A stretch of 62,803 nucleotides of DNA, the filler included, from Craspedostauros australis (taxonomy: Eukaryota): the NCBI GenBank assembly GCA_030167865.1. It is 12 parts of 12 records of this genome, joined end to end, with 100 filler letters (N's around TTAATTAATTAA, not from the genome) between each part and the next. Parts side by side here need not be neighbours in the genome. Positions count along the whole stretch, not along the records: positions 39,884 to 51,376 come from JALAGF010006044.1; 11 more parts are not named here. The stretch is one strand, 5' to 3'. Below the pieces are notes generated by a model. It was not told the DNA's origin. It was given only the letters and a program-made list of their open reading frames with translations, and searched no databases. How positions within the stretch are numbered: the stretch's first letter is position 1; the number at the start of each line of letters is the position of its first letter. Position numbers and translations under genes: made by a program. Shown here in pieces: positions 23,293-59,998 of this stretch.

Positions 23293-24097
23293 TGTCGAGA
23301 TGTACATGTGAGTATATGTCGAGATGTACGTGTATATGTGCATCGTTCACCCGCTATTCTCTCATACGTACTTGGACGGTACAACTACACTCGTGTCGAT
23401 AGTATGCTGTGATTTGTCAGAATTACAGTGAAAATAGAACACACGAAAATGAGCAGAATTTCTGGAGGAAATTTGCAATCAACGATTTCTGAGAGAATTG
23501 GAAATATCGTCCGTCCATCCATCAATGGAGACGCATGGTACCAAGCGAATCTTGAGGTACTTCTCAACTAAACCCCAGATGACGATATCATCTGACAGAC
23601 CATCGCATCATCGATGGAACGTGACATCTGGAGAGCAGAAGGATGCCTACCGACGTAGACAGGATGTCATCGTGTCACCACGTTGACATCTGTCTCCATG
23701 TCAGAAGCAGAAGGTGAAGATTCGATGACAGAAGGGCATTGAGATCATGGATACACTAAGAGGAGTTCAAGTGGTAAGTGCTCATGGAGTAGGAGCCAGT
23801 AGTGAACGAACAGAGTGTCGAATGCGGAGCATGCATCGAACATGGAGTGTCGTGTGACACAAACATGCAACATTGAGAAGAGAGAGAATACAATAGCAGC
23901 AAGAGAGCATCTTGCGTACGGACTCATAGTCGGAGACTGAATCTACAAAACAGACAGACGAGCCAAGAGCATCAGGCAAGAGAAAGGAGACACTGAGAGG
24001 ATTGGAGTGCTCAACTAAATGAAATAGCAAACAGAACGACTATCAACCAACATTGCCTTCCACGATCGCAAGTATCCAATCACGGAACTTGCCAACA
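23293..24097 (+). mobile_element. LTR, apparently solo; TGTCGAGATG...CTTGCCAACA
   Basis: TG..CA termini; homologous to five other copies in the window; no target-site duplication seen. Confidence 0.85.
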
Positions 24098-24834
24098 TCG
24101 CTGCGGAGAGCATGCAGTGGCAACTCATCCATGACGCAGTGTTGACTGCTGACCTGCCAATGTTCCCAGGGATTGTGAACAGAGGATTGCTACACATATG
24201 GGTGAGCATAGCACCTCAGAACATGTCTTGCAATGCAATGCATCGCAAGTTGTGACCATTGTATTCATCGGAGAGAATCCTTGCTGAGGCGTCCGCCCAT
24301 GTGCGAGTGTCGATGGAACCTTGAAGGTAAGATCGCCAGAAGTTTGAAGATTGAAAACGACGCATACTCGAGAGACGCTCCATGCACCTGAAACAAATGC
24401 AATGCCATCTTGGTCACTCCTGCCCCGCAACGTCCGTCCATTCTGCTCGACTCTAGCCTGATGTCTCTCTCTCTCTCTCTCTCTAGTCTGGTGTTTAGAC
24501 TTCGACAGCGATGGACGTGGGGAAACGAATCGCGGCTGGAAAGATCCACAATGAGACCACACAAAACAGATCCGATTCTTGCGTGTCTCTCGTCTCACCA
24601 ATTCGATTCGATTGTGCATCCTTTTCGGTTTGGGTTGGACCATTGATGCCATAGTCGTACGACCTAAGTATATGATACATGTATAATAACTCGCAGGAGC
24701 CACTCATCCACATAGAAGCTGACAGCATCGCCACGGTCTCGCCAGAACCAGTACGAGCTATTCTGGAGCAAGTATCAACAGCAATACCTCCCCGTCCGCG
24801 CATCATACCCACGAGCAACCGATTTTGCGGGACC

Positions 24835-27800: not shown

Positions 27801-27864
27801 GAGATGTTGGCGGGGACTGACCACTGCGCCTGGCGATGTTCAAGGCAGCGGCAGCAGCAGTTGA
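24835..27864 (+). CDS. Glycoside hydrolase family 3 beta-glucosidase (GH3_N, GH3_C, Fn3-like), intronless
   Basis: LSDGPHGLRK, ATCFPTGSALAATWN, GRTFEYLSEDP, CLKH, MCAYNK, VVTDWGA (nucleophile Asp), DLEMPG, YREGLHVGYR and FPFGHGLSYTTF. An upstream ATG at 24679 is also possible. Confidence 0.95.
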   Translation: MSQEESIGAADSAAFAVTPDASRAERVQQTLDGLSIEDKLSLISGASIWTLRSDILQPPQQQQPLPTLRLSDGPHGLRKTVTEESMQSHPATCFPTGSALAATWNAELMETAVGNALAKECEHHGVHVLLGPAMNIQRHPCCGRTFEYLSEDPIVSGKIAAALVRGIQSTGKVGACLKHVCVNHQEHRRFVVSTVVDERTLREIYLKAYEVAICGSTVGSSDGNVSAIDMFGASGNEGPDQGSRALFRSQPQQQHRQQPWALMCAYNKLNGTYCSEHRWLFQELIRNQWKFAGIVVTDWGATNHRVNGIQAGIDLEMPGSHGVHDAHIQKALRVGQIQPQQLDECVSRIIDLHFKVWDACESNVGSDDGSDDAQRTSADSNEHVDDVNSEHSDDGKERTGDGSTSSLAENDKESEIPSNKSMLDKHHQIAYRVALEAPVLLKNSPISSRGLSANRKSSTKPVLPFAHDRSLAVIGEFAKCPRLQGMGSSQVNPYRTDSVWDSIIGSSFAINVSYARGYSADDPGTKIRPSEIDEARQMAEGADQVLLMVGLPDICESEAYDRTSWDLPLHHLALIDAVLQANPNTAVVIVSGSPTIMSPWIHKAASVVQSFLLGQAGGKALVDLLFGKESFSGKLAMTFPTPQGVHDVPAYQDFPGHDQVEYREGLHVGYRRYCCTPLSNVQNHPHSSQTDMRRMQRYTSEVQFPFGHGLSYTTFDYSSMRLNVTHDEDEHKRVDLSFCLSNTGSMSAAETWQLYVKKPGTSTVDHPDLELKDFGKVKLRPRESREISIIAGIDCFSFWDVGHQAWIVEPGEYTIMIGASSQDMRLVGTVRFIHGRQPSSEAQISHPPRKLLSSEIVRDHTSNRSFQQMLGPNLAFLASSTIAAKAFPFLTTTAATTTASAVAPFHRNSLLCEISKRSWIGYCFSSMVYGSVWFKLKVWRDPGLGMVARAMTNDMPLRGIVLFSSGNLSFNMIDGIIDALNGHWIQLFRRCWRGLTTAPGDVQGSGSSS

Positions 27865-37597: not shown

Positions 37598-38540
37598 TGT
37601 CGAGATGTACATGTGAGTATATGTCGAGATGTACATGTGAGTATATGTCGAGATGTACGTGTATATGTGCATCGTTCACCCGCTATTCTCTCATACGCAC
37701 TTGGNNNNNNNNNNNNNNNNNNNNNNNNNNNNNNNNNNNNNNNNNNNNNNNNNNACATGTGAGTATATGTCGAGATGTACGTGTATATGTGCATCGTTCA
37801 CCCGCTATTCTCTCATACGCACTTGGACGGTATAACTATATTCGTGTTGATAGTATACTGTGATTCGTCAGAATTGCAGCAGAAATGGAACACACGAAAA
37901 TGAGCAAGATTTCTAGAGGAAATTTGCAATCGACGATTTCTGAGAGAATTGGAAGATCGTCCGTCCATCCATCAATGGTACCAAGAGAATCTCAAGGTAC
38001 TTCCCAACTAAACCTNNNNNNNNNNNNNNNNNNNNNNNNNNNNNNNNNNNNNNNNNNNNNNTGACATCTGGAGAGCAGAAGGACGCCTACTGACGTCGAC
38101 AGGATGTCATCATGTCACCACGTCGACATCTGTCTCCAAGTCAGAGCAAGAGGCAAAGATCCGATGACCGAAGAGGATCAGCATCATGGATACAGAAGGT
38201 GAACTTCAAATGGTAAGTACTCATGGAGTAGGAGCCAGTACTGAATGAACGGAGTGTCAAATGCGGAGTACGCATCGAACACGGAGTATTGTGTAGCACG
38301 AGCACACGATGTTGAGAGAGAGAGAGAGAATACAGAGAGGAGCGAGAGAGCATCTCGCGTACCGACTCATAGTCGGAGACCGAATCTACAAAACAGATTG
38401 AATCACCGAGAGCATTGGGCAAGAGAATGGGCATACACCGAGAGGATCGGAGTAGCCAACTAATGAAATAGCAAACAAACGACTATCAACCAACACCATC
38501 TTCCACGATCGTAGGTTGCCGTGAGCGGAACTTGCCAACA
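37598..38540 (+). mobile_element. 3' LTR preceded by a polypurine tract (AGGAAGGG), abutting a Copia RT
   Basis: The 16-mer ATGCACACAGGAAGGG directly precedes TG here and in the 59982 copy. One extra 24-bp head repeat is present. Confidence 0.88.
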
Positions 38541-39030: not shown

Positions 39031-39783
39031 GGGGGGGAAGGGAAAACGTCGTTTTTTGCGAATTGCGACGAAGGAAAACGAAAGAAAAAAATGGATGCGG
39101 GCAACCAAATGGTGAAAAATTCTTACGTATTTTCGAAAGGGACTTGTGGCTTTTCTGCTTATTCTTGTGTTGTGCATGTACTGCATTTTGTCTTTTTTTG
39201 GATTTTGTCATTCTGGTCTGCGGATCCTCCACCCCTCCATGAAATTCCACACATTCGACAGCCACAGAGCCAGCATGTTACCCTCTCTTCGAATGGGGGT
39301 TGCGGATGTTGTTCGAACTCTATCGCCACTTGACTTGTTGCATTTCCACCAGCAGGATTCATCTAGTTACAACAAGCAAAAGTTGCACATTCTGACTCCA
39401 CTATTTATGCCATTCTCTTCTACATCTACAACTTTCGTTCGCCATACTGAAGGCAGTCAACTTGCATTACCACGGCGCTGTCGTGCTGACCTCCCTCGAG
39501 TCCTCATCCCAGTAGCAGTTGCCTCCCCTTGCTCATTCTCCTCATTGGCATCGTCATGTTGAGGGTTGTGTTCTTCCATCCCTCCTTCTGTTGATGGTGT
39601 TGATGTTGTCGATGCTACTTCAACCTCCAGGGCTTCTTCAAAACTTCCTTCCGCTGCCTCCCCTGCTCTTGTATCATCTTCAGGGACCGTTGCAGTGGAT
39701 TCCAGCATTGCTGTTGGCGATGTCATTCCGATTCTGGTGCTTTCGGCTCCTACTGTTGCTGCTGTTGGTGATGGCATTGCCTG
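39031..39783 (-). mobile_element. End of an unclassified element with a G-rich terminus, carrying the 3' end of an ORF homologous to 51732-54573
   Basis: Sharp junction in the Copia RT at GGGGGGGAAGGGAAAACG. 39181-39520 is similar to 51477-51795. ORF ends ATGMRTRGRSARQRRGNAS* versus TTGMRTRGRAARQSRGDAS*. Confidence 0.65.
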
Positions 39784-40906
39784 NNNNNNNNNNNNNNNNN
39801 NNNNNNNNNNNNNNNNNNNNNNNNNNNTTAATTAATTAANNNNNNNNNNNNNNNNNNNNNNNNNNNNNNNNNNNNNNNNNNNNTGGTCGGTTTCGCACGA
39901 GGGATTGTGGAACTTTCACACTTTCTCAGAAATCACGTATTGAGCAAATAAACTGCAATTTTTACGTGCAGTATCTCCGTTTAAGTATCTCGAGGCGACA
40001 AACTCCATTGTCGTAACAGAACGACAATTCCGGCCGATACGTTCATGATATCGTTGCGATGGTACTATCTTATGCTCAGTATTGTTGTCGTTTATTACTA
40101 GTATTACCGCAATAGTACCAAGACATACGCAAAATTGACAAAATTGTTTTCTACAAAATCCCAACAAAACAAGGACAGAAGTGTTCCTTTGATGTGAACG
40201 GCGACACAGCAGTTGGCTGTTGAGATACTTCTGNCGGTAGTATCCGTTTTGGTATCATGTCGTCGGCTGTGACTTTGTGAACACAGTTGTGAGCGAGATT
40301 CTGGGTCTTTGTGTGACACCAGAAAACAACAACAACAACATCGGCATCAAGATCGACAATGGCATCGGTGCTGTCGCCAGGTACAAGTACCCACAGGTCT
40401 GTGTTAGCTAGCAGGATGAGCTCACGCTACAAATGTACACAATACTTGGCACACCGGTCATATGCAACACATGTGCACATCACAGCAAACCAATAGNNAA
40501 AATGACAATGNTGATTACAATGGCNTAAACANGCTGCTGTCGGTCACAGTCACCACTGTGGNCTGCAATATGGGTTGAATTCAGGATTGCAGCTTTNGCA
40601 ACTTCACTGANGGGGCATCTGNTTTGGTGGTGGGCATGCCATATTGGCCGCAGCACAGGACCCACCCACCCATCTATTCATCCATGAAGATCATCCATCC
40701 TTGTACCAGTTCCGGCGATGGCATCCAGGTTGGGATCTTTCCTCTACATTCAATGGGCAGAGATCCTTTGAAAAGTGTATGATTGTTGGTGTTGGAAAGA
40801 GTNNNNNNNNNNNNNNNNNNNNNNNNNNNNNNNNNNNNNNNNNNNNNNNNNNNNNNNNNNNNNNNNNNNNNNNNNNNNNNNNNNNNNNNNNNNNNNNNNN
40901 NNNCTG

Positions 40907-41712
40907 TGTCGAGATGTACATGCGTGTATATGTCAAGATGTACGTGTATATGTGCATCATTCACCTGTTATTCTCTTATTCATGTACAGATGGTACAACT
41001 ACATTCGTGTCAATTGTATACTGTGATTTGTCAGAATCCCAGTGGAAATGGAACACACGAAAATGAGCAGATTTTCTGGAGGAAATTTGCAATCAACGAT
41101 TTCTGAGAGAATCAGGAACATCGTCCGTCCATTCATCAATGGAAACGTATGGTATCGAGCGAAGCTCGATGTACCTCCCAACTAAGCCCCAGATGATGAT
41201 ATCATCTGACAGACCACAGCATCACCAATGGAACGTGACATCTGGAGGAACAGGACGACGACAGCTGACATAGACAGGATGTCATTGTGTCACCACATCA
41301 ACATCTGTCTCCATGTCAGAAGCAGAAGGTGAAGATTTGATGACTGAAGGGCATGGAGATCATGGATACATGAAGAGGAGTTCAAGTGGCAAGCACTCGT
41401 GGAGTAGAAGTCAGTAGTGAACGAATGGAGTGTTGGATGTGGAGTATGCATTGAACACAGAGTATCATGTAGCACGAACATGCAACATTGAGAAGAGAGA
41501 GAATACGAATAGCAGCAAGAGAGCATCTCGCGTACCAACTCATAGTCGGAGACCAATCTACNAAACACAGAGACGCGCCAAGAGCATTGGGCAAGAGAAC
41601 GGAGACACAAAGAGGATCGGAGTGCTCAAGGAATGAAATAGCAAACAAAACAACTATCAACCAACACCGTCTTCCAAGATCGCAAGTTATCCGTCCACGG
41701 AACTTGCCAATA
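40907..41712 (+). mobile_element. Older, decayed LTR copy
   Basis: Homologous to 23293-24097 with many CG>TG/CA changes; terminal CA has become TA. Confidence 0.85.
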
Positions 41713-43779
41713 TGTGTGCTCTGTTCTCTGGATACTCTGGTGTTGCAGATTTGTAGCTTGTTGGTTGTTGCTGATTGCTGATTGCTTTGCAGTAGGTTCA
41801 ATGTTCAATTCTCGATGCCTTGCCTGCTGCTGGTTGCTTTCTCCTGGATCCTTTCCATGGATTTGTTGTTTGTGGCTGCATGCCCAGCTCTCTTCTNGAT
41901 ATGCTTTTCTGGAATCTCTTGGTTGGGTAAACTGTGGATTCTCTGGTTGGGTCAAGTGGTGTGCTGGATGCTCCTCCCTCTCTCTCTCTCTCTTGTAAAT
42001 CATCACTGCCAATTCACTACTGCTTACCAAATGACATCTGGCAAGGATCACTGCTGATGCATTGATAGCTGGTGGTGGCAGAATACTCTGATCGATGCTC
42101 AGCCGTGTGTGAAGTTGTTGGGTGTGATCAGAAGCTCCCCAGCTGCTGTCTGGAGCCGCCCACTCATTGTTGATCGTTGGCAGATGTTTCAGCTCCTGCC
42201 GCATGCTGTGTTCTGATTGGCAAGTTGTTTCAGAATACAGAATGCAGTCTGCATGTTGGATAATGCTGACAAATTCATTGTACATTGGTGTCTGGCAGAT
42301 GCTTCGCTGCATGCTTTGCCTGTTGTTTTTGCATTGGCAATGTGTGGTCTGATGAGATGGTGAAGACAGAGCAAAGGAACAATGTATAAACCATGCATGC
42401 CCACTTGATTGTTGCAAAGGATGATGGTGTCATTGCTGAAACGATCAGTGACGTAAGCATAGCATGCCAAGTCCATGACTTGGTGCACCGCACATCTGCG
42501 ACAGNCAGGAGGTTCTGCAATGAATGACAACTCTGTTGCTTTGCTACAGTGAGGAAATGTGTGACNGATCCCATCAGGTTGTCCACTACAGCTGGGACAG
42601 TCTTTGTTTGGTGTGATGTGAGACAGGATGGAGCATCCCCCAGGTGTTGATACTATCTATCTCTAGAGGCACAGTGGCATGGCATGGCGTGGCAGGGATG
42701 GATAGATGGATGGGTGTTTGTTGAATGCCAAGTCTGGCGTGGCTGAGTATGAGAGGGTGGGAGACTGTTGTGTTGGAGTCTATTTGTTGTTGGGGATTGT
42801 TTGTCGGCATGGCTGGGGTTCTTGGCATGGCATGTTTCTTCTTCCACTCTCGATCCCACTTCCACATGAGCTACATACTTGCTCTGCAGATGAAGTTGAG
42901 TTGGAAGGAAGGGAGGGAGGAGGTAGCGTCAATTGGCAGTGTTGTCAACGAGTTTCTGAATGAGTTGTGTTGAGAGTTGAGCATGGATTGCCACACAAGA
43001 AACCAACGCTCCTCCTCGTTGCCAACAACGCGAATAGACCACAGATCAAAGTACTCAAGTTTTGGCATTATCGTCCTTATTTTTGAACAGTGGCCACTGT
43101 TTTGACAGAAAGAAACAAGAAGAGACAAGAATCATGCGATGATTTGCGTACAAGAGATGCAAAAAGAGAGATCTGGACAATCGAATCAATCATTTTGGTT
43201 CAGATTGGGCAAAAATGCGAAAAGCCATGTTGGTACCATGAGGAAACAAACAGTTTGACGAAACAGTGTGGGAAACAGGAAAGGAAGAAAGCGAATTGTG
43301 ACGTCACATGGGCATTGCAAAGACCTAAATCCCCATGAAAGTGGCTGTCTCCATTGCGTCCAGACAAGTTTCAATAGCGGGGCTCCCCCTGAAATTCGGA
43401 CAGCCCGGCGTGTCCCAGTACCCAAGTTCTGGGGCCACTCGAACCCATCACGAATCATCAATCAAGCAGGCTTTTACATCAGAGTGTTTGACCCGATCGA
43501 CTCAACAGGCTGGATGCACGACCCACGTATGGTACTCAAACAGGCCAATCAACGAACAGATGGCACACTGCCCTTTCCTGACACTAGGCTTAATAGGGGC
43601 AGGCCTACTGGAACTATCAACAACAACAACAACCATGCAAGGCCAACATCAGAAAGTCACAACACAAGCACATAAGATCACAGGAATTCATCAGTCACTG
43701 TCGTCGCATGATCACGGCGCACAGTACTGCATGAAACTTCACTGCTGATCTCCTCTCTTCCTTTTTGGTTTTCCTCGTC

Positions 43780-45930
43780 ATGTCCGGCCTCCAGGACCTC
43801 TCTCGCCGCTTCGCCGACTCCCTCTTCGAGGACGATGGTGGTGGGGGGGACGATGATGCGTTTGCAACACCGCAGAAGGCAGCTTCGGTAACGTTCAACC
43901 TTGGGAAGACGGCTGTCTCCGGTAAGCGTTACAAGCTGTATTGTGTTCCTACGACCGACGACGAGTATGAACGAGCATGTTTCACGATGATTGGGAAGGG
44001 AGAAACCTTCTGCACAGACCCAAGCTGTTCCAAAACACATCAAGGAGTTGCATGGGACCCACCCAAAGGGGAGCTGCACATTGCAAAGACAGCAACAACT
44101 GCATACTTCACACCCAGCCTGCCACTGTCACGTCTGCACGCAGAGCTAGCCAAAAACATGACCGCTGCTTCGTTGTCTCTTGATGATTGGCTTCGTTTCT
44201 TCACTGCTGCCACAGGCATACCACCGGAACTGCCCATTACCACCGAACTCCTTCAGGCAGAATACGAAGACATTGCACAAGCCCACCTTCAGCGCACTCC
44301 TCGCAAAAGCAAGACTCTTTCTGCAATGGAAGATGCTGCAGGCAACCCTGCTTACACCAAACAAGTGAATGATCCAACCGACCTTGAACAACAGGGCACA
44401 CTGAACGATGTCGCCAAGACGCTGTGTTCCGTTGACAACGAAGTAGCCAAAACCTCCAAAACCCTCAACGATACAGTACGCCTCCTCCTCCAAGAACAAC
44501 AAACCAACCATACTGCACACAAGACGGCTGCTCATCGTATCCATGAGGTGGAGTCCAGTCTTGGCAAGCGCGGCCGGAACCAATTCGAAGGTTTTGAGTC
44601 AGTGACTGTCTGGGGCACCCTCGCAACGGTCTTGGACATGATGGCATCATTCGACGACGCGCTCACAGACCCGCCCTCTAGCGAAGATGTACTCGCGTTG
44701 GAGCAGAAGATGATATCCGAGATCGCAGCCGCAAAAACAGAATCTCAAGCGTCTGTGTCTCGTTTGGAATCCTCAACTGTTTCCACGATGTCCCAGCTGT
44801 ACGACCGTTTCAAGGAACTCGCGGCGCGGTCGTCCGGGGGAAGCAATCCTGAGATTCAACGCCTCTCAAACACCGTCGATGCCATGCAAGCACAAGGCAA
44901 CCCCACTGAACGACTGAACCAACTCGAAACCGCGTTCGCACGCATCCAATCAACAACTGATACCACTCGAGTTCGATTTGGAGGTTTGGGTTTCGGTTCC
45001 TTCCCGGAAGCCAGTCTCTGGCTCGACACTGAGTGCCCTGATTTCGATTGTGGCCACTTCGTGGATGCTCATGTGCTTTTCCAACACATCCTGGTTCGGA
45101 TGACTGGCGGAAGCAACCTCAAGATGCTGACAACACTCAAGAAAGCTGGCATTGCTACAGGCAATTTTGCCACAACAGTGGAATCATTTGATCACACCAT
45201 CCCTACCTTCTTCTGCTCCCCTGGTGTAGGCAAGCCCATCGATGTCACGCACTCATTCTTTGACAAGATCCCATCATATGCAGATTGGTCCATCGTGTCC
45301 ACAGGGTACAAGGACAAACTGGAGCTACACTTGCGTGACGTCCGCTTCGACATCGAGTCCTCCATCCGTGATGTTTATGATTATTCATCCCGCCAAGCCA
45401 GCCTCATGCAAGCTGCACTCAGCAGATCCGCGGAGTGGATTCATGGGTTCGTCCGATTCATTGATGACTACTACAACGACCTGAACCGCTCACGCTACAG
45501 CACAGCCAAGGCTTGGCACCTGGTCACCTCGCTGGGTTACCGTCTCATCAGTGAGATCGCCAAGCCTCGTCGAATGGCACCTGGTGCACTGAATGCCGAC
45601 AATCAAGCAAGCAACAACAAAGTCATGTTCTTTGCTATCCTTCGCAGCTTGGATATCATGGAAGAAATAATGGACAAAGGATTTCGTGACCATCCAATTG
45701 TGGCAAACGAACTGGTTCGCTTCCTCGCAAAGAATACCGGTCAAGAAGCCATTGATGTACTGCAACGCAAAATGGCAGCTGCAGAAGACGTGATCAAACA
45801 GCAAGCGAAGGATTTGAATGCACAAGAGAAATTAATCACCACATTGAAGAGCACCGCGAAAACCAATGGAGATGAACTCAAGGCGCTCAAATCGCGCATC
45901 ACGAAGCTGGAACAGAAGGCACACAAATGA
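43780..45930 (+). CDS. ORF1, gag-like protein (716 aa)
   Basis: N-terminal C-x10-C-x4-C-x3-H (CFTMIGKGETFCTDPSCSKTH), coiled-coil-like C-terminus, and position upstream of pol. Confidence 0.75.
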   Translation: MSGLQDLSRRFADSLFEDDGGGGDDDAFATPQKAASVTFNLGKTAVSGKRYKLYCVPTTDDEYERACFTMIGKGETFCTDPSCSKTHQGVAWDPPKGELHIAKTATTAYFTPSLPLSRLHAELAKNMTAASLSLDDWLRFFTAATGIPPELPITTELLQAEYEDIAQAHLQRTPRKSKTLSAMEDAAGNPAYTKQVNDPTDLEQQGTLNDVAKTLCSVDNEVAKTSKTLNDTVRLLLQEQQTNHTAHKTAAHRIHEVESSLGKRGRNQFEGFESVTVWGTLATVLDMMASFDDALTDPPSSEDVLALEQKMISEIAAAKTESQASVSRLESSTVSTMSQLYDRFKELAARSSGGSNPEIQRLSNTVDAMQAQGNPTERLNQLETAFARIQSTTDTTRVRFGGLGFGSFPEASLWLDTECPDFDCGHFVDAHVLFQHILVRMTGGSNLKMLTTLKKAGIATGNFATTVESFDHTIPTFFCSPGVGKPIDVTHSFFDKIPSYADWSIVSTGYKDKLELHLRDVRFDIESSIRDVYDYSSRQASLMQAALSRSAEWIHGFVRFIDDYYNDLNRSRYSTAKAWHLVTSLGYRLISEIAKPRRMAPGALNADNQASNNKVMFFAILRSLDIMEEIMDKGFRDHPIVANELVRFLAKNTGQEAIDVLQRKMAAAEDVIKQQAKDLNAQEKLITTLKSTAKTNGDELKALKSRITKLEQKAHK

Positions 45931-45936
45931 CAATTA
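45928..45936 (+). promoter_or_regulatory. Putative programmed stop-codon readthrough signal TGA-CAATTA (CARYYA)
   Basis: It is the only stop between in-frame ORF1 and ORF2, and the hexamer equals the TMV-type readthrough context. Confidence 0.7.
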
Positions 45937-48900
45937 AACAGTAGCAGTGAAGTGAATGAACCCACCTCTCTGTCTGCGGCTTCTTTGTCTTTTGTTTCGG
46001 ACCGTTCTCTTCTCCAACCCCCAGCACAAATGCATATCGTGCTGGCATACGAACACTTTCCTTTCTGGCTCTTATCTATCCAGAAGGTTTGTGTGTGTCG
46101 CATCGAGCTGATGGTACCTCAGGGTGCTCCATTGTCACATGGCATCGAACTTGCCTGGCGGCCACTCTTCCAGGCCTGCGTGGAATACTTCGGAGATCTC
46201 ATCCAACCGTGGAAGGGGCCCACTGCCTCCTATCATTTGGCTCTTGTCACTGGTTCACAGCTCTTCATCGAGCAACATCGAACGCGGTGCGATGCCTCCC
46301 AGTTCATTGGAGTGATTGACAACCATGTCATTGATCGAAGACGAACTCACTACAGCGATGAGTGGCACCAGATTCAGCATCCACGTGTTGGGGGAGCCAC
46401 AACTTTCACCACCTGGTGGCTTGCAACCCCAGCACTCAACCCGATGCAATTCTCTCAACACAATGATGTCCAGTCTTTGCTGCACCGGGGGTTCCCTGTG
46501 AAAATCGATAGGATGAAAACAGTGGCGGCTGTCACTCATCGCCTCCGTATTGGCCAATGGTCACCTTCGGTGGTCACCACTTCATATTACTCTCGAACGA
46601 TAGCAGGGACCAGACGTCTCACATCCATTGAGCTCAGCACCATTTTCAACATCCCCAACATCTACGCCCGTGTCAGGGTACCTCCGTCTCTCTACCCCTT
46701 TCTACCCATTGGCATACTCAATGCATTCATGGCAATCGCTGCACGTCAACCCATGATGCACCAACCACTCGTTCACCGAAGCGCAACGTCAGTGAACAAC
46801 ACCAACAAAGACGTTTGGTTGCCTTCCATACAACGATGGCTACCGAGTGCATGGAACAACATTGGCTGGGTTTCGACAAAGGCGGCGAAAGGCGATGATG
46901 CTGACATCCATTTCTCTCTATGGGATGATCGCATTCGACTCGTCCTACCTGATGCAATGCCATTGGTTCCGCTGCTCAGGGGTCTACTTCTACGATATTA
47001 CAGGCGTTCTGTATGGAAGGAGATGCGGCAACACCTTCGGGTCTCTTTTGGTCCACGCTGGTGGGTGTTGCTCATGTACATAAAACATCGGCGACACCAC
47101 AATCGGTCAAGTCATGGACGCTTTCTGCAAGCACTACAGTCCATGGAACTTGATGGGTATGATTCTGATGCCACTGTCGCGACAACTAACCTACAGAGCT
47201 GTTCTGTGACACATCTACAGCACCAGGAGCGAACCATGGGCAAGCAGATGATGGCTGCCACGACCGTCTGCGCGCGCATACTCATGCAACTCGCCACGGC
47301 CTCGTGGTGGAGGTGGACGCGTGGGTCGTCGCTCCTATTCTGGCGGTGGTCAGCGTATGCGGAAATAGCACGTGAGGGCATACCTCCATGTATCACAGGT
47401 ACCTTGCCACACTACCGCCCAGCACCAAAACGCTTCACCCTGTCCGACTACGCGCTTATGCTTCCCAAGATGAAAAAGATGTTGGACAACGGGTATATGG
47501 TTGTTCCAAGGCTGCAGCGAAGCATCCGCAGTTGCATTGATTACTTCCATGTGCCGAAGGATACAGACATCCGACCGGTGTACAATGGCACCAGCTGTGG
47601 GCTTAATGAGGTGTTGTGGTCTCCCAAGTTCTGGCTCCCAATGGCCAAAACTGCGGTGCGGGCTATGGACTTCGGCTTCGTCTCGTCCGACCTGGACATC
47701 GGCGAAATGTTCCACAATTTCCCGCTGCACGCCGACCTCAAAGCGTGGTCGGGTGTCGATCTCTCCAACTTCGCTGCTGATCTCCCTGACTACACAACTC
47801 CTCATCGACGTCAATTCCACGTTGTTTGGGACCGGTGCTGGATGGGAGCTCGCACAAGTCCGTACACGGCTGTTCGTTTCTACTATCTGGCAGAAGACTT
47901 CGTGTTGGGCGATCGACGCAACACCCACAATGCCTTTCGATGGGATCAGCTTCGGCTCAATCTCCCTGGGTCATCGCAGTTTGATCCATCCAGGCCACGC
48001 GTCATCAAGTTCAATACTCGCACTCAACGTATGGCTACGCAAATGCTGGTCTATGTTGACGATGTCAGAATCGTTTCGACAGACATTAATGCGGCGTGGC
48101 TGGCCACTCATCAGGTCTCCACGCGACTGCAGCATCTCGGAATACAGGATGCTCTCCGTAAGCGCCGCCCTCCATCCGCCGTGCCTGGTGAATGGATTGG
48201 CTGTGTATTTCGGGCCTCCACGGATCAAGTCTCGGTGACGGTCTCCCTGGCCAAGTGGGAGAAAGCGCGTGCACTCATCCAGCAATTGTGTCAGCAGTTG
48301 CGTTCATCAGATGCTGGAGTCGTCAACTACAAGGATCTTGAGCGCACACGCGGTTTTATGTGCCATCTCTCGATGACGTTCCCGCAGGTTGCGGTGTTCC
48401 TCAAGGGGTTTCATTTGACTCTGGCTTCTATTTGGCCTGGTCGCGACGAACAAGGGTGGCGCATTCCTTCTCGTTCTCTTGCTGCGGCTCTTCACCATTG
48501 TGATGACGGAGGTCCTTCGCCACCGAATATACCGGAGACCATTCTTCCGGTCGCCCGGTTGCACGATGATCTTCGTGCGCTGACGCAGCTCTTCGCTCTG
48601 GAGGCTCCGCCCTGCATTTCGCACCGTGCTCGCACGATGCTTCAGGTGATTTATGGGTTTGTGGACGCCTCTGGGTCCGGTTTTGGGAGTTCTTTTGCCC
48701 TAACCAGCGGCATTTCTTGCCGTCTGGGCTCATGGGGAAGGGACACGGAGAGTCTCAGCTCCAATTTTCGCGAGTTTTCCAATCTCGTTGAATCCTTGGA
48801 GGAGGAGGGCAAACGTGGCAGTCTTCGTGACGCAGTCGTCTACGTCTTCACTGACAATTCCACGGTGGAACGGGCTTGCTACAAGGTCAACACCAGCAGT

Positions 48901-49824
48901 CGTCTGCTCTTCGACCTTGTGGTTCGTCTCAAGCTTGTGGAGTTTCGACATGGCTGTCAGCTTCATGTCTACCATTGCGCTGGCGATCGCATGATACGAC
49001 AGGGCACTGACGGCCTCTCTCGAGGCGATGTACAAGGAGTTACACAGGGTGATGGCAGTCTTCTCTCTCACATCCCCACACACCAGTCAGCAATCGAGAG
49101 GTGTCCGTCTCTGCTGCAGTGGATGCGTTCATGGTTACCTGCTACCCCAGTCGTACTTAGTCCCACAGACTGGTACGAACGGGGTCACGACATCAACGGT
49201 TTCGTGACAGGTCCTCGCGGTCTCTCCCAACCACTTATCTCATCTGGAACATACATCTGGCACCCTCCTCCTGCGGCTGCGGATGTGGCACTTGAGGAAC
49301 TACGCAAGGCAACGCTCAAACGACAGCGATCCATGCATGTGTTCGTTTGTCCACGTCTGATGACGTGTGAATGGATGCGTCAAGCTCACAAAGCTTTTGA
49401 TCTCATTTTGCGCATTCCTCCCAATCATTCCTTTTGGCCACCGAACATGTTCGAACCATGCATTCTGGGTATTGCTTTTCCTTTCTTACCATATCGTCCA
49501 TGGGAACTCAGGGCCACACCGAAGCTGCTCCAGCTGGAGCGGGACGTGTCGTCGATGTTCCAAAATTCGGACGTGGACGGAGGGCATCTTCTGCACGAAT
49601 TTCTATTGGAGCATCGCAGGTTTTCCAGCCTGCAAAAGCATGTGGTGTGGAGGATGTTATACTTCCGAGAACCGCCTTGGATTTCATCAACATCATCTCC
49701 AACCAACAGACGCAAGCGGAAGCGATCCCAACGAACGCCTCGAGATGAACTGGAACATGAAGCACACCAACAAACACTTGTTCAACCAAGGGCGAAACGG
49801 AGATCATCTGCTGATTCCATTTGA
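45931..49824 (+). CDS. ORF2, pol: reverse transcriptase + RNase H + degenerate methyltransferase-like region
   Basis: RT motifs VPK..DIRPVYN, DLDIGEMFHNF, WMG..SPY and YVDD (48052-48063). RNase H motifs FVDASGSGFG, NFRE, FTDN and DGLSRG. Downstream YIWHPPP...VFVCP....W. First ATG is at 46030. Confidence 0.93.
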   Translation, partial: QLNSSSEVNEPTSLSAASLSFVSDRSLLQPPAQMHIVLAYEHFPFWLLSIQKVCVCRIELMVPQGAPLSHGIELAWRPLFQACVEYFGDLIQPWKGPTASYHLALVTGSQLFIEQHRTRCDASQFIGVIDNHVIDRRRTHYSDEWHQIQHPRVGGATTFTTWWLATPALNPMQFSQHNDVQSLLHRGFPVKIDRMKTVAAVTHRLRIGQWSPSVVTTSYYSRTIAGTRRLTSIELSTIFNIPNIYARVRVPPSLYPFLPIGILNAFMAIAARQPMMHQPLVHRSATSVNNTNKDVWLPSIQRWLPSAWNNIGWVSTKAAKGDDADIHFSLWDDRIRLVLPDAMPLVPLLRGLLLRYYRRSVWKEMRQHLRVSFGPRWWVLLMYIKHRRHHNRSSHGRFLQALQSMELDGYDSDATVATTNLQSCSVTHLQHQERTMGKQMMAATTVCARILMQLATASWWRWTRGSSLLFWRWSAYAEIAREGIPPCITGTLPHYRPAPKRFTLSDYALMLPKMKKMLDNGYMVVPRLQRSIRSCIDYFHVPKDTDIRPVYNGTSCGLNEVLWSPKFWLPMAKTAVRAMDFGFVSSDLDIGEMFHNFPLHADLKAWSGVDLSNFAADLPDYTTPHRRQFHVVWDRCWMGARTSPYTAVRFYYLAEDFVLGDRRNTHNAFRWDQLRLNLPGSSQFDPSRPRVIKFNTRTQRMATQMLVYVDDVRIVSTDINAAWLATHQVSTRLQHLGIQDALRKRRPPSAVPGEWIGCVFRASTDQVSVTVSLAKWEKARALIQQLCQQLRSSDAGVVNYKDLERTRGFMCHLSMTFPQVAVFLKGFHLTLASIWPGRDEQGWRIPSRSLAAALHHCDDGGPSPPNIPETILPVARLHDDLRALTQLFALEAPPCISHRARTMLQVIYGFVDASGSGFGSSFALTSGISCRLGSWGRDTESLSSNFREFSNLVESLEEEGKRGSLRDAVVYVFTDNSTVERACYKVNTSSRLLFDLVVRLKLVEFRHGCQLHVYHCAGDRMIRQGTDGLSRGDVQGVTQGDGSLLSHIPTHQSAIERCPSLLQWMRSWLPATPVVLSPTDWYERGHDINGFVTGPRGLSQPLISSGTYIWHPPPAAADVALEELRKATLKRQRSMHVFVCPRLMTCEWMRQAHKAFDLILRIPPNHSFWPPNMFEPCILGIAFPFLPYRPWELRATPKLLQLERDVSSMFQNSDVDGGHLLHEFLLEHRRFSSLQKHVVWRMLYFREPPWISSTSSPTNRRKRKRSQRTPRDELEHEAHQQTLVQPRAKRRSSADSI

Positions 49825-51049
49825 GTGCGACACATGTGTGTTCATCAAACTGAAATCACGTCGTCCTATCCCACAAGATCACACTGATGAACGTCTACTC
49901 CAAGCCATTCGCAGAGTTAACCTTGATGCTTTCTGGAGCAGAGCGACCACTACAGTGAAAGCCAATGCGGGTCGAGCACGACGCATGATCCACATGAGCC
50001 AAGGCCTGGGGTTGGAGGGTCCATTTGAAGCGCATGGACCATTACCTCCGTTCGATCATTGCGGCTACCAAGTCGCAATCTTGATGGTATTGATGTCGCT
50101 GAAGCCTGGACAACACTCGAAAACGCATACACAGTATGATACTATCCGCAAGGCACGAGCAACCTATTCAAATCACATCAGAGCATCCGCTGCATCCACT
50201 CAACATTCCTTGAGCATGGGTGATCAAAAGGGTCGGTACCAACGTATCACCTCTGATCCATGCGGTTCTTTCTGGTTCACCAGGTTCAACGAAGGCTGCA
50301 GGTATCGTATGGGACAGGATTGGCGACCAAACAAGGGTTTCTCTACAGACCTTGTGTTGGCCATATTGGACATTGCACAGGAACGTCTGGATGAGTGCGA
50401 ACCGTTGGACGCAGATCAACATCGGTGGGCCGCGTTTATGGCATACGCAACGCTGTCATACGTTCTCTCTCTGCGAGGGACGGAAGCTCAAATGCTTGAC
50501 TTGGGAGCTACGCTCAAGGAATGGTCACGTCCCAAACCAAAAGACCATTTCACTATCGTGTTACAAGGCAAATTCAAAGGGGAACATCAGTCATATCAAC
50601 ACATCATCCCGGTGTCTACCAACACTAAGTCTGGCATCAAGGTGCAACACATCGTTGCAGAGCTTCTTCATATAAAAAACAAGGCACAGCAACGTTTCGG
50701 ACCGGCAATCTCTTCCAAGGACGGAGTTCTGTATACTCTCAAGGAATTGGATGACGCACTCCACGACATTTTGGAGAGCATCTGGGAATCCAATCGCGCA
50801 CTCTTTCCTCCCGACATCACTCAGTCTTCCAAATTGCGAGAAAACTACCATTGTTTTCGCTCTTTTCGACGAGCCTCCGACACTCGAGCTCTGGATCAAA
50901 AGGTAAGCGAATCTGACATCAAATTGGTCAATCGTTGGGAAAAACGAGGACCAGGAGGTGGGCGTCGAAACGAGACAGACATGAGGTTTCACTACGCTCA
51001 GTTTGACCTTCTTGTCCAGCCGTTTCTGCGCTACACCGCTGCCATGTAA
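49367..51049 (+). CDS. ORF3, tyrosine recombinase, overlapping the pol 3' end in the +1 frame
   Basis: SLRGTE (R), GKFKGE (K), RSFRR, VNRW and HYAQ (Y), plus an N-terminal Cys cluster. 49367 is GTG; the first ATG is at 49640. Confidence 0.88.
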   Translation: MNGCVKLTKLLISFCAFLPIIPFGHRTCSNHAFWVLLFLSYHIVHGNSGPHRSCSSWSGTCRRCSKIRTWTEGIFCTNFYWSIAGFPACKSMWCGGCYTSENRLGFHQHHLQPTDASGSDPNERLEMNWNMKHTNKHLFNQGRNGDHLLIPFECDTCVFIKLKSRRPIPQDHTDERLLQAIRRVNLDAFWSRATTTVKANAGRARRMIHMSQGLGLEGPFEAHGPLPPFDHCGYQVAILMVLMSLKPGQHSKTHTQYDTIRKARATYSNHIRASAASTQHSLSMGDQKGRYQRITSDPCGSFWFTRFNEGCRYRMGQDWRPNKGFSTDLVLAILDIAQERLDECEPLDADQHRWAAFMAYATLSYVLSLRGTEAQMLDLGATLKEWSRPKPKDHFTIVLQGKFKGEHQSYQHIIPVSTNTKSGIKVQHIVAELLHIKNKAQQRFGPAISSKDGVLYTLKELDDALHDILESIWESNRALFPPDITQSSKLRENYHCFRSFRRASDTRALDQKVSESDIKLVNRWEKRGPGGGRRNETDMRFHYAQFDLLVQPFLRYTAAM

Positions 51050-51731
51050 TGGGCGGTACTATTGGGGATCAGGAAGTGCATAACATGGAGTTGGGATAGA
51101 TTCGTCAAAAGCCGGTACAACTGGTGGACTGGTTCGATGCCGGAAGGCTGCGGTCATACTCAGAGTAGCATTCGCTACATGGGGACCAAAACCTACACGC
51201 CGAACTCTAGTCAACATACGACATCGCATCCAGCTCCAATAACAGCATGAACTGACATGGTATTACACATGCAACGCATGCTACACACCAACCCAATAGT
51301 GCACATATCTTGTGATATACTCTACTACTGACTTTCTGCACTACCATTTGCTCTTCAGCTGTATGATCGACCACCGNNNNNNNNNNNNNNNNNNNNNNNN
51401 NNNNNNNNNNNNNNNNNNNNTTAATTAATTAANNNNNNNNNNNNNNNNNNNNNNNNNNNNNNNNNNNNNNNNNNNNCTGCATCTTGTTGTTTTTTGGCTT
51501 TTTTCATTCTGGTCCACGGATCCTTCGCCTCTTCATGCCATTGTACACATTCGACAGCTACAGAGCCAGCATGTTCCCCTCTCTTCGAATGGGGGGTGCG
51601 GATGTTGTTGCGACTCTCTTGCCAGTTGACTTGTTGCATTCCAACAGCAGGATTCATCTAGGTACGACAAGCAAACGTTGTACATTCTGACTCCACTATT
51701 TATGGTATTCTCGTTTGCCTTGCTGAGGCGG

Positions 51732-54573
51732 TTAACTTGCATCACCACGGCTCTGTCGTGCAGCCCTTCCACGGGTCCTCATCCCAGTAGTAGTCGGCTT
51801 TCTTCGTGCTTTCTCTTTGTCATTATGCTGGTGCTGTGATTGTTGGTCTCCTATTGCTTGTTCTGCCATTGTGGGATTATTCGTGGCTGCTTCCGCTGTT
51901 GTCGTTGGTGCTGTTGCGACCTGCGGTGGCTGTTGGCTACTTCCTTCTGCTGTCTCTCCTCTTGCATCATCTTTTCGGACCGATTCAGTTGATGCCAAAG
52001 TTGCACTTGGCGATGGCATCTGGACTCCACCTGTTTCGGCTCCTCTTGTTGACACCAGTGATGGCGGTGATGGCAAGATCACCACCTCTGTTTGGGCATC
52101 TGTTCGTGTTGTATGCTGCTTACCGCCTGCCTGGGCTGGTAGGATCCGTTGAGGTGATCCCACTACAGCAATCACCTCTTCTGGTGCCCGTCCTCCTCCA
52201 CTGTCCAAGACTTCCGAAATTCTGGCTGCTGGTGATCGTGGTGGTGGCATTGTCTGCATCTCCGTTCGGGAATCTGTTCCTGTTGTTTGCTGCTCACCGC
52301 CTGCCTGGGCTGGTAGGATCCGTTGAGGTGATCCCACTACAGCAATCACCTCTTCTGGTGCCCGTCCTCCTCCACTGTCCAAGACTTCCAAATTTCTGGC
52401 TGCTGGTGATCGTGGTGGTGGCATTGTCTGCACCTCCGTTCGTGTTCTGTGGTGGGCATTGCCTGCCTGGGCTGGTAGGATCCGTTGGGGTGATCCTGCT
52501 GTTGCCATCTCGTCTGGCCATGCCCGTCCTCCTCCACTGTCCAAGACTTCCGAACGTCTGGCTGCTGGTGATTGTGGTGGTGGCATTGTCTGTGTCTCCG
52601 TTCGGGCATCTGTTCGTGTTGTTTGCTGTGCACCGCCTGCCTGGGCTGGTAGGATCCGTTCGAGCGATGGGTGAATGCGACTGCTCTGGCTTCTTTCGTC
52701 CATAGCAGAGCGACGGTATGTGTACTGGTCTGCGCTGACTCTCACATCTGCTGCTGCTGGATCTTTACCACCTGATCTGCTTGCCAAGTGGCCAGCAGCA
52801 TCAACCAATGCCGCATCNNNNNNNNNNNNNNNNNNNNNNNNNNNNNNNNNNNNNNNNNNNNNNNNNNGATCCCACTACAGCAATCACCTCTTCTGGTGCC
52901 CGTCCTCCTCCACTGTCCAAGACTTCCAAACTTCTGGCTGCTGGTGATCGTGGTGGTGGCATTGTCTGCATCTCCGTTCGTGTTCTGTGGTGGGCATTGC
53001 CTGCCTGGGCTGGTAGGATCCGTTGGGGTGATCCTGCTGTTGCCATCTCGTCTGGCCATGCCCGTCCTCCTCCACTGTCCAAGACTTCCGAACGTCTGGC
53101 TGCTGGTGATTGTGGTGGTGGCATTGTCTGTGTCTCCGTTCGGGCATCTGTTCGTGTTGTTTGCTGTGCACCGCCTGCCTGGGCTGGTAGGATCCGTTCG
53201 AGCGATGGGTGAATGCGACTGCTCTGGCTTCTTTCGTCCATAGCAGAGCGACGGTATGTGTACTGGTCTGCGCTGACTCTCACATCTGCTGCTGCTGGAT
53301 CTTTACCACCTGATCTGCTTGCCAAGTGGCCAGCAGCATCAACCAATGCCGCATCAAGGGAGATATCCTCATGCTCCCACCATCTGTTGGCATTTTGGGA
53401 GACGTTCACATTGATGTTGGGGCCACCTGCTGGGGCCATTTCGATGGCAAGGCGGGGCTTCTTTCTTGGTCCACTCACTTCATTGTTCTCTGCCAACATT
53501 CTGGGTCTCTGTTGCAAGGCGTCTTCCCGTGCCCGGATTATGCGCTTTTCCTCCACCTTGAGAGCCAGCTCAGCTTCCATCATCTCAAGTGCTACCCGCT
53601 TGATTTCAATGCGGTCTCGTATTATGTCGGTACTGTCCGTAAATACCGACATGGTGTCGTCAGTGGCAGTCCGGGTTGCTGTCTGATGACTGATTGCAGA
53701 AACCGTGGGCGTGGCTTGTTGGCCATGCAGCCTTGGCTGTGTTGCTGATGGTAGCTGTCCGGTGTTGTTGCTTGCAAGGCTTTGTGCTGCTGGGATGTGG
53801 CTGTGGCCTCCTGGCTTGGTGGTGGGTGTGGGTATTGCAGGTGTTGTGCTGTAGCCAGCAGCATTTCCTGTGGTGTCCACTGTCTTGCTCACCGTGCTCG
53901 TCATTGTGTTGTTGATATTGTGGGTGGTAATGTCAGTGGTGCAGCTTTGTGTGTTAGTGACTTCATCACGGACACCCGGATGGCTTCCATCACCATCTGC
54001 AAAGCCGAGACCATGGCATACAGAAAAGTGCCGGGTCACACCCACGTTGGTTGCTTCCTTCAAACGTACCGTTATTGTGAGGATGTTGTGAGTGGCGCCA
54101 TCATTGTCCTTCACAGCATGANNNNNNNNNNNNNNNNNNNNNNNNNNNNNNNNNNNNNNNNNNNNNNNNNNNNNNNNNNNNNNNNNNNNNNNNNNNNNNN
54201 NNNNNNNNNNNNNNNNNNNNNNNGCAAAGTCTTCATTCCGAAACTGCTGCACATGGGCAGCACGTTTCTGTCCTGCATCAGAGAATGGATGGCCCAACTT
54301 GTCGATTAGAATGTCCACGATGCTTCCATCTTGACCGAAAGCTGATGGTGGCTTGTACAGCAGCACCAGGAACATCCGAGGTACTCCGCCCACCTTCCGA
54401 CTTTCAATGGTCACTGTTGCGTCATTCCTTGTAGTACATGCAGGCAGGTGGAAATCCACCCCAACCATGCGATATCGTTCACCACGAGGTCTCCACACTT
54501 GAGTTGTGTGAAAGACCTCGATGGTGCGGCTCAGCTTCCGAAACTTGGCAACTCGTTGGGGCTCTGATAGCTC
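51732..54573 (-). CDS. Large hypothetical, probably transposon-borne ORF with ~57-61 aa tandem repeats; 5'-partial and partly duplicated across a gap
   Basis: The frame is open from the gap at 54574. Repeats read QTMPPPRSPAAR.SEVLDSGGGRA....GSPQRILPAQAG. The 3' end and flank are homologous to the element at 39031-39783. Confidence 0.6.
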
Positions 54574-54743
54574 ANNNNNNNNNNNNNNNNNNNNNNNNNN
54601 NNNNNNNNNNNNNNNNNNTTAATTAATTAANNNNNNNNNNNNNNNNNNNNNNNNNNNNNNNNNNNNNNNNNNNNTGATAGTGCTGGGTACACATTGTCCG
54701 AGAGCTCTCAGCCTCCATTGGAGCCAGCACATTGTCACTTGTC

Positions 54744-59248: not shown

Positions 59249-59998
59249 GTTGATAGTCGTCTGTTTGCTATTTCATTACTTGGCTACTCCGATCCTCTCG
59301 GTGTACGCCGTTCTCTCGCCCGATGCTCTTGGCGCTTCAATCTGTTTCGTAGATTCAGTCTCCGACTATGAGTCGGTACGCGAGATCCTCTCTCGCTCCT
59401 CTCTGTATTCTCTCTCTCTATATCGTGTGCTCGTGCTACACGATACTTCGTGTTCGATGCGCACTCCGCATTCGACACTCTGTTCATTCAGTACTGGTTC
59501 CTACTCCATGAGTACTTGCCATTTGAAGTTCACCTTCAGTATCCATGATCTTCATGGGTCATCGTATCTTTGCCTCCTGCTCTGACTTGGAGACAGCTGT
59601 CGACGTGGTGACATGTTGACATCCTGTCAACGTCAGTAGGTGTCCTTCTGCTCTCCAGATGTCACGTTTCATTGGTGATGCTGTAGTCTGTCAGATGATA
59701 TTGTCATCTGAGGTTTAGTTGGGAAGTACCTCGAGATTCTCTTGGTACCATTGATGCATGGACGGACGATCTTCTGATTCTCCCAGAAATCGTTATTTGC
59801 AAATTTCCTCCAGAAATCTTGCCCCTTTTCGTGTGTTCCGCTTCCTCTGTAATTCTGACGAATCACAGCATACTATCGACACGAGTGTAGTTATACCGTC
59901 CAAGTGCGTATGAGAGAATAATGGGTGAATGATGCACATATACACGTACATCTTGACATATACTCACATGTACATCTCGACACCCTTCCTGTGTGCAT
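59249..59998 (-). mobile_element. 3' LTR (59982 to 59249, truncated) with its polypurine tract
   Basis: Reverse complement of the 37598 copy, including ATGCACACAGGAAGGG. Confidence 0.88.

What the first reader, a model, noticed from the sequence alone, without database searches (positions are those of the whole stretch)
43780..51049. Intact, possibly unclassified lineage of YR retrotransposon
Seen: 7.3 kb with three uninterrupted ORFs (Zn-knuckle gag-like; RT/RNase H; YR with an extra N-terminal Cys-rich domain), in a neighbourhood where other TEs are decayed. I could not find DIRS-type inverted termini or Ngaro/PAT-type split direct repeats in the visible flanks; the 3' flank is cut at 51376. 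Inference: this is a recent insertion of a stramenopile-specific YR clade whose terminal structure is undetermined.
Basis: partly seen in the sequence, partly recalled or inferred. Interest (0 to 1): 0.72.

Follow-up and report, generated by a model that had tools for sequence, protein, structure and literature searches.

The report
Diatom recombinase retrotransposon, recoded and spliced
This is an intact jumping gene of a known but rare kind, probably from a diatom, that pastes itself in with a recombinase; its family carries a disabled DNA-methylation enzyme and seems to make its enzymes by reading through a stop codon and by splicing, much as some retroviruses do.

Summary
The three open frames are real, but 'Zn-knuckle' is wrong: ORF1 has a CCCH-type motif. 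Copies in the genome put the ends at 43446 and about 22 nt into the assembly gap, with a shared 1-bp C and no target duplication. The termini are most likely ordinary split direct repeats (A1-ORFs-B1-A2-spacer-B2): relatives show that layout; this copy's A2-B2 is unseen. No RNA evidence was obtained. It works like PAT/SymbioDIRS-Dnmt3 elements; clade membership was untestable. The scan had noted the repeats, dead DNMT and leaky UGA on other DNA, but my look-ups showed no pseudoknot or splice.

The parts
41877..43445 (+). Unrelated multi-copy host repeat; the element sits a few bases inside its 3' end
   Evidence: Dozens of matches stop at window 43449. Six uninterrupted copies end ...GAACCCCTC followed by TA. 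Contig C2581 carries the element's right end followed by CTCTA, the missing end of this repeat.
43446..43767 (+). A1 terminal repeat / 5' UTR (322 nt); left end starts CATCACGAATC
   Evidence: 10 left-end hits with 7 different flanks share this start. The same 322 nt precede the spacer in C980 and C6164.
43780..45930 (+). ORF1, putative Gag, 716 aa: CCCH-type motif at 43978-44040 and C-terminal coiled coil; no CCHC knuckle
   Evidence: Gag role inferred from position only.
43919..43927 (+). Predicted phase-1 splice donor (exon ends 43921, GTAAGC)
   Evidence: Phase-1 GT[AG]AG before the CCCH motif in 32 of 35 ORF1s; background 0.07 per 250 nt. Coordinate; also present in copy C3341. Here it lies 18 codons before the motif, against 31-40 in relatives.
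45928..46010 (+). ORF1 UGA stop (context UGA-CAA-UUA) with ORF2 directly in frame; site of the family's pseudoknot, here only an imperfect hairpin
   Evidence: window scores 0 in the strict search; hairpin, z -0.77.
46009..46764 (+). DNMT3-like cytosine-methyltransferase fold without catalytic motifs, at the N-terminus of Pol
   Evidence: Model pLDDT 76. Foldseek best DNMT3A/B, E 7.6e-7. VIA Z 14.2, rmsd 4.0, 216 aligned; the first 21 rows are all DNMT-family. No Pro-Cys motif IV in 37 of 37.
47305..49026 (+). Reverse transcriptase (YVDD at 48052-48063) and RNase H
48997..49674 (+). C-terminal Pol domain with W-x-PPP, probably a DIRS-type N6-adenine-methyltransferase-like (MT) domain
   Evidence: Atlas features 0.92 to clusters with Pfam Dam on 11-27% of members (lead only). 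Pfam and PDB sequence searches were blank. No structure was predicted.
49482..49512 (+). Predicted splice acceptor (pyrimidine tract, CTCAG; exon starts 49512, phase 1)
   Evidence: The first AG after the tract is a phase-1 YAG in 54 of 55 loci, against 97 of 1003 control positions.
49364..51049 (+). ORF3, tyrosine recombinase with N-terminal Cys-rich domain (from 49547); R371, K405, R499-x-x-R502 (Arg in place of the usual His), W525, Y544 invariant
   Evidence: Residue roles assigned from recalled YR motifs, not from a superposition.
51064..51376 (+). B1 repeat / 3' UTR (first 313 of about 335 nt); copies end ...CAACGGCC
   Evidence: 8 hits, 6 with different flanks.
51377..51476 (.). Assembly gap; expected to hide the rest of B1 and probably A2-spacer-B2
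   Evidence: Inference; not observed for this copy.

Best explanation
An autonomous YR (DIRS-order) retrotransposon with split direct repeats, A1-ORF1-Pol-YR-B1-A2-spacer-B2, of a large diatom-associated lineage. Shown by sequence or tool: the frames, the ends, the 1-bp C core without target duplication, the YR and DNMT3 folds, and the loss of DNMT catalytic motifs. Shown in relatives but not in this copy: the B1-A2-spacer-B2 end and the clean pseudoknot. Inferred: full-length RNA is translated to ORF1; occasional UGA readthrough, helped by a downstream pseudoknot, gives ORF1-Pol (pseudo-DNMT, RT, RH, MT-like); a spliced RNA joins the first ~47 codons of ORF1 to ORF3 and gives a ~559-aa recombinase; RT uses the internal B1|A2 junction to rebuild the ends; the YR joins that junction to a target at a single shared C. 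Solo A-spacer-B units and copies ending ORF3-B-flank would come from A1xA2 and B1xB2 recombination. The dead DNMT fold is most likely kept as a DNA-binding or decoy module.
For: Ends. The C count at both junctions plus the empty host repeat fits conservative exchange. The same right-end ..CC / left-end C.. rule holds in two other families of this genome and in L118. SDR: L118 = ORF3-B1-A2-x-B2-flank; L106 and L151 = A..ORFs..B1-A2-x-B2; L081, L110, L122 = R-x-R (6 of 55 long loci show the spacer). Contig C1646 closes right end onto left end. The 74-nt spacer of this family occurs in 3 contigs and not in the window. Precedents: SIRE = A2+~30 bp+B2 of VIPER (PMC6681497); solo AB of Cafeteria Ngaro (PMC8547959). 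Readthrough: in frame 46 of 49; stops TGA 46, TAG 3, TAA 0; first Met up to 408 codons in. Pseudoknot 39 of 42 vs 28 of 210; stem 2 is 96.8% paired with 11 double changes, 0 of 500 shuffles reach this. Splicing. All three frames were kept across proteins only about 24-48% identical.
Against: No B-to-A junction of this family was found in the assembly (0 of 10 left and 0 of 8 right hits). Several decayed copies run ORF3-B-flank directly (C6145, C3197, C5797, C6555, C4768, C5904, C4181). L088, L117 and L132 have ~10 kb of 3' flank without a second B. The window copy fails the strict pseudoknot search, and its CAA-UUA context is shared by none of the other 48. C1646 has no GT[AG]AG donor. No spliced contig: 0 of 68 loci. 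In Tca2, UGA plus a potential pseudoknot did not direct readthrough in yeast (PMC2194720 abstract). DIRS-1 cDNA is mostly linear single-stranded, and its circle junction was not amplified (PMC7192593 passages). Many loci come from one metagenome and are related, so counts are not independent; the 21 rows were picked by me for an RTGAG loop.
Confidence: 0.72

Rival explanations
1. The lineage has no terminal repeats: the element is A-ORFs-B only, A-spacer-B units are separate non-autonomous derivatives, and B-A junctions are circles or tandem insertions.
For: No repeat in the assembled element. Many copies run ORF3-B-flank. Circular contigs C1646 and L137 hold one A and one B. C980 is a gap-free flank-A-x-B.
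Against: Six metagenome loci hold B-A-x-B contiguously, with a similar C-rich spacer in unrelated families. Breakpoints always flank the ORFs. Many element-length contigs start at the last 127 nt of A, as a collapsed repeat would. VIPER/SIRE is a published case of the same confusion.
Confidence: 0.12
2. An SDR element as above, but Pol is made without readthrough (junction promoter, reinitiation or a spliced RNA), and the pseudoknot serves packaging or reverse transcription.
For: Tca2 precedent. The 3' context of the stop is not conserved. The window copy lacks the perfect pseudoknot and has an in-frame Met 33 codons in.
Against: Strict frame conservation, TGA bias, and first Met deep inside the conserved DNMT fold in many relatives. 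The pseudoknot starts about 6-16 nt after the stop.
Confidence: 0.2
3. The element belongs to a family already catalogued (Repbase/Dfam or RepeatModeler 'LTR/Ngaro' of diatoms), and the extra features are by-products of coding constraint.
For: 'LTR/Ngaro' is already reported as a repeat class in Chaetoceros (bioRxiv 10.64898/2026.04.27.720831, passages). The acceptor region overlaps ORF2 codons.
Against: The acceptor YAG shifts in steps of 3 nt and stays in phase 1 while ORF2 residues change. The donor sits in an otherwise unconserved stretch. Being catalogued would not explain these.
Confidence: 0.25

Closest known systems
SymbioDIRS-Dnmt3 (de Mendoza et al. 2018, PMC5890265; passages and section 6 read)
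   Same: A-coding-B-A-B repeats, a DNMT3-type domain inside Pol with RT, YR in a separate ORF.
   Different: There the key DNMT residues are conserved; here the Pro-Cys motif is absent in 37 of 37. Host is diatom-like, not dinoflagellate. Common origin was not tested.
PAT-type DIRS elements (Toc3, echinoderm-form Pat1; key in PMC4157794, passages read)
   Same: Split direct repeats with internal repeats after a forward YR; RT-RH followed by a probable MT domain.
   Different: Extra pseudo-DNMT; no CCHC zinc finger; MT only a lead; in-frame ORF1-stop-Pol; Cys-rich YR N-terminus without a start codon.
Ngaro of the stramenopile Cafeteria burkhardae (PMC8547959, passages read)
   Same: A1-ORFs-B1A2B2, ORF order gag / RT-RH / YR, solo AB units.
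   Different: Ngaro lacks MT (PMC3783388, PMC4157794); the Cafeteria YR keeps His-x-x-Arg and hits Pfam PF00589, whereas this one has Arg-x-x-Arg and no Pfam hit; about 8 kb against about 6 kb.
VIPER/SIRE of trypanosomes (PMC6681497, passages read)
   Same: SDRs with a short exclusive spacer between A2 and B2, and free A-spacer-B units.
   Different: VIPER ORF order is gag-YR-RT/RH (order as listed in the paper's figure legend), with no MT.
Gammaretroviral gag-pol readthrough (MuLV; recalled) and Tca2 (PMC2194720, abstract read)
   Same: In-frame gag-stop-pol with a 3' pseudoknot a few nt downstream; spliced RNA for the 3' gene (retroviral env; recalled).
   Different: Unrelated element order, UGA rather than UAG; in Tca2 the junction alone was insufficient.

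Membership tests
DIRS order (YR retrotransposons) | RT plus RNase H | tested here: met
   (RVT_1 weak, best E 2.8e-6 in relatives).
DIRS order (YR retrotransposons) | Tyrosine recombinase instead of DDE integrase | tested here: met
DIRS order (YR retrotransposons) | No true target duplication; short shared core | tested here: met
   1-bp C core; the right junction is taken from contig C2581, assigned to this copy by a 72-nt overlap and the continued host repeat.
Dirs1-like | Inverted terminal repeats plus ICR | tested here: not met
   Longest inverted repeat 14 nt in the element; none at the termini of relatives.
PAT-like (Pat1/Toc3) | Split direct repeats A1-B1-A2-B2 | tested here: inconclusive
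   Met in 6 relatives; not assembled for this copy.
PAT-like (Pat1/Toc3) | MT (Dam-like) domain after RNase H | tested here: inconclusive
Pat1-like | Zinc finger in Gag | tested here: inconclusive
   No CCHC in 24 of 24; a different CCCH-type motif is conserved.
Kangaroo | YR inverted, internal repeats between MT and YR | tested here: not met
   YR on the same strand and overlapping Pol.
Ngaro | Absence of MT domain | tested here: inconclusive
   A conserved ~230-aa domain follows RNase H; it may be MT.
VIPER | ORF order gag-YR-RT/RH | tested here: not met
   Order is ORF1-Pol-YR.
SymbioDIRS-Dnmt3 | DNMT3-type domain in Pol | tested here: met
   Fold only; DNMT3 and bacterial C5-MTases are within 1 Z unit.
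SymbioDIRS-Dnmt3 | Catalytic DNMT residues conserved | tested here: not met
   motif IV Pro-Cys 0 of 37; an EN[VP] string anywhere in the region in 2 of 37.
Any named clade | RT/YR phylogenetic placement with named references | not testable with these tools
   No named reference sequences were available; the tree holds only unnamed relatives.

The most novel reading that the evidence does not exclude
A widespread diatom lineage of YR retrotransposons runs a retrovirus-like expression programme not found in my paper searches for the DIRS order: pseudoknot-stimulated UGA readthrough for Pol and a spliced subgenomic RNA for the recombinase. It also keeps a catalytically dead DNMT3 fold as an anti-silencing or cDNA-shielding module. 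It would merit its own clade beside DIRS1, PAT, Ngaro and VIPER.
Probability: 0.35. Interest if true: 0.78.

Novelty: new variant of a known kind. Interest (0 to 1): 0.58.

Why it matters
How DIRS-order elements express three ORFs is poorly studied. This family offers exact, testable signals: a covarying pseudoknot, a donor and an acceptor. A dead DNMT3 fold kept across a very large lineage (1529 clusters at E<=1e-30 to the RT-RH profile, fragments included) points to a non-catalytic role against host methylation in diatoms, complementing the active SymbioDIRS-Dnmt3. Practically, standard domain libraries miss these elements, and short-read assemblies hide their repeats or turn them into circular contigs.

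Tried and rejected
Sequencing runs: none was listed, so no reads were laid. IMG/VR and prokaryote contigs: no relatives. Rfam: 5 chance-level hits, no ribozyme. Pfam/PDB sequence searches of YR, DNMT-like, MT-like and RT profiles: nothing informative. A search for proteins carrying the whole YR Cys domain gave no hit; 0 of 120 called YR proteins include it (that query began downstream, so it is biased). My first reading, 'no terminal repeats plus MITE-like derivative', was dropped. A conserved TMV-type CARYYA context was rejected: 1 of 49. RNAalifold on the MAFFT alignment found only 4 pairs because stem 1 shifts register. An inverted terminus for the host repeat was not found. In the tree, 11 of 34 rows failed my trimming rule and were left out; it shows only that the window groups with 6 marine relatives (99/96) and far from a sister lineage. 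The fold searches do not list any match for the YR Cys-rich domain; it was not folded alone. No complex was predicted.
Full report
Observation. The three frames exist without interruption: ORF1 43780-45930, ORF2 45931-49824, ORF3 49364-51049. Pfam sees only a weak RT. An AlphaFold model of ORF3 (pLDDT 81) matches XerH, Cre and lambda integrase. In 40 aligned sequences R371, K405, R499, R502, W525 and Y544 are invariant; by recalled YR motifs the usual H-x-x-R reads R-x-x-R. ORF1 has no CCHC knuckle (0 of 24) but a conserved C-x10-C-x4-C-x3-H. The host is diatom-like by inference: one relative's cluster holds a Skeletonema menzelii protein and an MMETSP transcript (1 of 10 clusters looked up carried names).

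Ends. A DNA search of the own genome showed an unrelated repeat stopping at 43449 and several partial copies. Ten left-end hits with seven different flanks start at 43446; six flanked right ends stop about 22 nt beyond 51376 at ...AACG(G/A)CC. Contig C2581 overlaps the window's last 72 nt exactly and continues with CTCTA, the missing end of the host repeat seen in six uninterrupted copies. Counting Cs gives a conservative exchange at one shared C. The scaffold places a different contig after the gap, so this assignment is likely, not proven. Two more families in the genome follow the same ..CC / C.. rule, and contig C1646 (8502 nt, 83-nt terminal overlap, three intact frames) joins right end to left end through one C.

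Split direct repeats. Within 43446-51376 there is no repeat above 14 nt. But C980 and C6164 hold A (322 nt) + 74-nt spacer + B, and C1093 begins in the spacer; the spacer is absent from the window. Of 80 metagenome loci (best 80 of 270), 55 were long enough to inspect. Six show the spacer between repeats: L118 as ORF3-B1-A2-x-B2-flank, L106 and L151 as A..ORFs..B1-A2-x-B2, and L081, L110, L122 as R-x-R. Seven are permuted with ORF3 ahead of ORF1. Spacers are C-rich in all families seen. This is the A1-B1-A2-B2 layout of PAT, Ngaro, VIPER and SymbioDIRS; VIPER's SIRE is A2 + ~30 bp + B2 (PMC6681497, passages) and Cafeteria Ngaros leave solo AB units (PMC8547959, passages). I put SDR in the lineage at about 0.9 and an intact A2-B2 in this copy at about 0.6.

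Pol. The first ~280 residues of ORF2 fold as a C5 DNA methyltransferase, best DNMT3A/B (model; Foldseek E 7.6e-7; Z 14.2, rmsd 4.0, 216 aligned, M.HhaI 13.8). Motif IV reads G-S-x-x-F, with no Pro-Cys in 37 of 37; the FxGxG, ENV and RxR motifs (recalled) are not recognisable. SymbioDIRS-Dnmt3 has the same layout with conserved key residues (PMC5890265, passages and section 6). After RNase H lies a conserved W-x-PPP domain with an Atlas lead to Dam-bearing clusters (0.92; Dam on 11-27% of members). If it is MT, the structural key (PMC4157794, PMC3783388, passages) puts the element with PAT rather than Ngaro.

Expression signals. ORF2 continues in frame after the ORF1 stop in 46 of 49 elements; stops are TGA 46, TAG 3; the first Met can be 400 codons in. 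A fixed-rule search for an H-type pseudoknot in the 90 nt after the stop scored >=24 in 39 of 42 elements (39 of the 49, after dropping 10 near-duplicates or a deleted copy, plus 3 added) against 28 of 210 windows in ORF2. Divergent members change several stem-2 pairs together. On 21 hand-picked rows stem 2 is 96.8% paired with 11 double changes, 0 of 500 shuffles, though only 2 of 6 pairs vary on both sides. The window copy scores 0 and shows only an imperfect hairpin, with a UGA-CAA-UUA context recalled as a leaky-stop motif. ORF3 often lacks a Met before its Cys domain. A phase-1 GT[AG]AG lies before the ORF1 CCCH motif in 32 of 35 (35 phase-1 against 3 other sites; background 0.07 per 250 nt). 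The first AG after a pyrimidine tract ahead of the Cys domain is a phase-1 YAG in 54 of 55, against 97 of 1003 controls. In the window the pair 43921|49512 would give 559 aa. No transcript was seen: no run was listed, and 0 of 68 loci are spliced. The loci are related and many come from one metagenome, so the counts overstate independence.

Literature. Nine searches. Readthrough + pseudoknot + retrotransposon + DIRS gave 0 papers. YR + DIRS + spliced + subgenomic gave one, on Dictyostelium DIRS-1; I read passages for other terms and did not check its uses of 'spliced'. Also seen as passages: PMC3212892, PMC12344493, the Chaetoceros preprint; abstract only: PMC2194720. No supplements were read; subscription papers, Repbase and Dfam were out of reach and may already hold such families. 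MuLV readthrough and the DNMT/YR motif names are recalled.

Earlier scan notes (AI notes, leads only) describe SDR YR elements, dead DNMT folds and a leaky UGA on other diatom-like DNA. I had reached those readings. None of the notes shown mentions the pseudoknot or the splice.

Verdict. A real, intact member of a known order in an undescribed or thinly described variant. The interest lies in the pseudo-DNMT3 and the predicted readthrough-plus-splicing programme, which remain untested at RNA level. Interest 0.58.

Noticed in passing
L173-L176 (G000 C4191, C777, C997, C2887): A distant sister lineage of YR elements in the same genome, several with intact ~1145-aa Pol: similar DNMT-like N-terminus (weak profile hits), Cys-rich YR that keeps H-x-x-R in L173, ORF1 overlapping Pol out of frame instead of an in-frame stop.
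   Followed up: partly
L031 (G000 C1646) and L137: Element-length contigs with exact terminal overlaps (83 and 120 nt): collapsed repeat loops or true circles.
   Followed up: partly
L110:2859-2894, L122:4241-4277, L151:9554-9597, L118:~6290-6350: The spacer holds CCCAC(T)TACC, complementary to a 5' splice site like the element's own GGTGAGT donor; it could shield the donor in full-length RNA or be an antisense donor. Absent from the window family's spacer.
   Followed up: no
window 41877-43449: Abundant non-coding repeat with a GC hairpin near its end, followed by CTA(A/T)T in six copies; Helitron-like by recalled pattern; no inverted terminus found.
   Followed up: partly
window 51477 onward vs L162 (G000 C2581): The scaffold continues with a repeat also found at 39181-39417, while C2581 looks like the true right flank: possible mis-join.
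   Followed up: partly
window 51732-54618 (-): Low-complexity frame built of 162-174-nt tandem units, partly duplicated across gaps.
   Followed up: no
window 40904-41729, 23291-24098, 37755-38540, 59249-59983: A second ~800-nt repeat family (79-89% identical), also inserted into several decayed YR copies.
   Followed up: no
window 1-846, 3205-5121, 6364-7548, 24676-27861: Host genes: cyclic-nucleotide phosphodiesterase, F-box/FIST_C protein, GT4 glycosyltransferase, GH3 glycosidase.
   Followed up: no
L022:3123-5264 / 1674-3119 (G000 C3648): A near-complete copy of a second family with one in-frame TGA inside RT.
   Followed up: no
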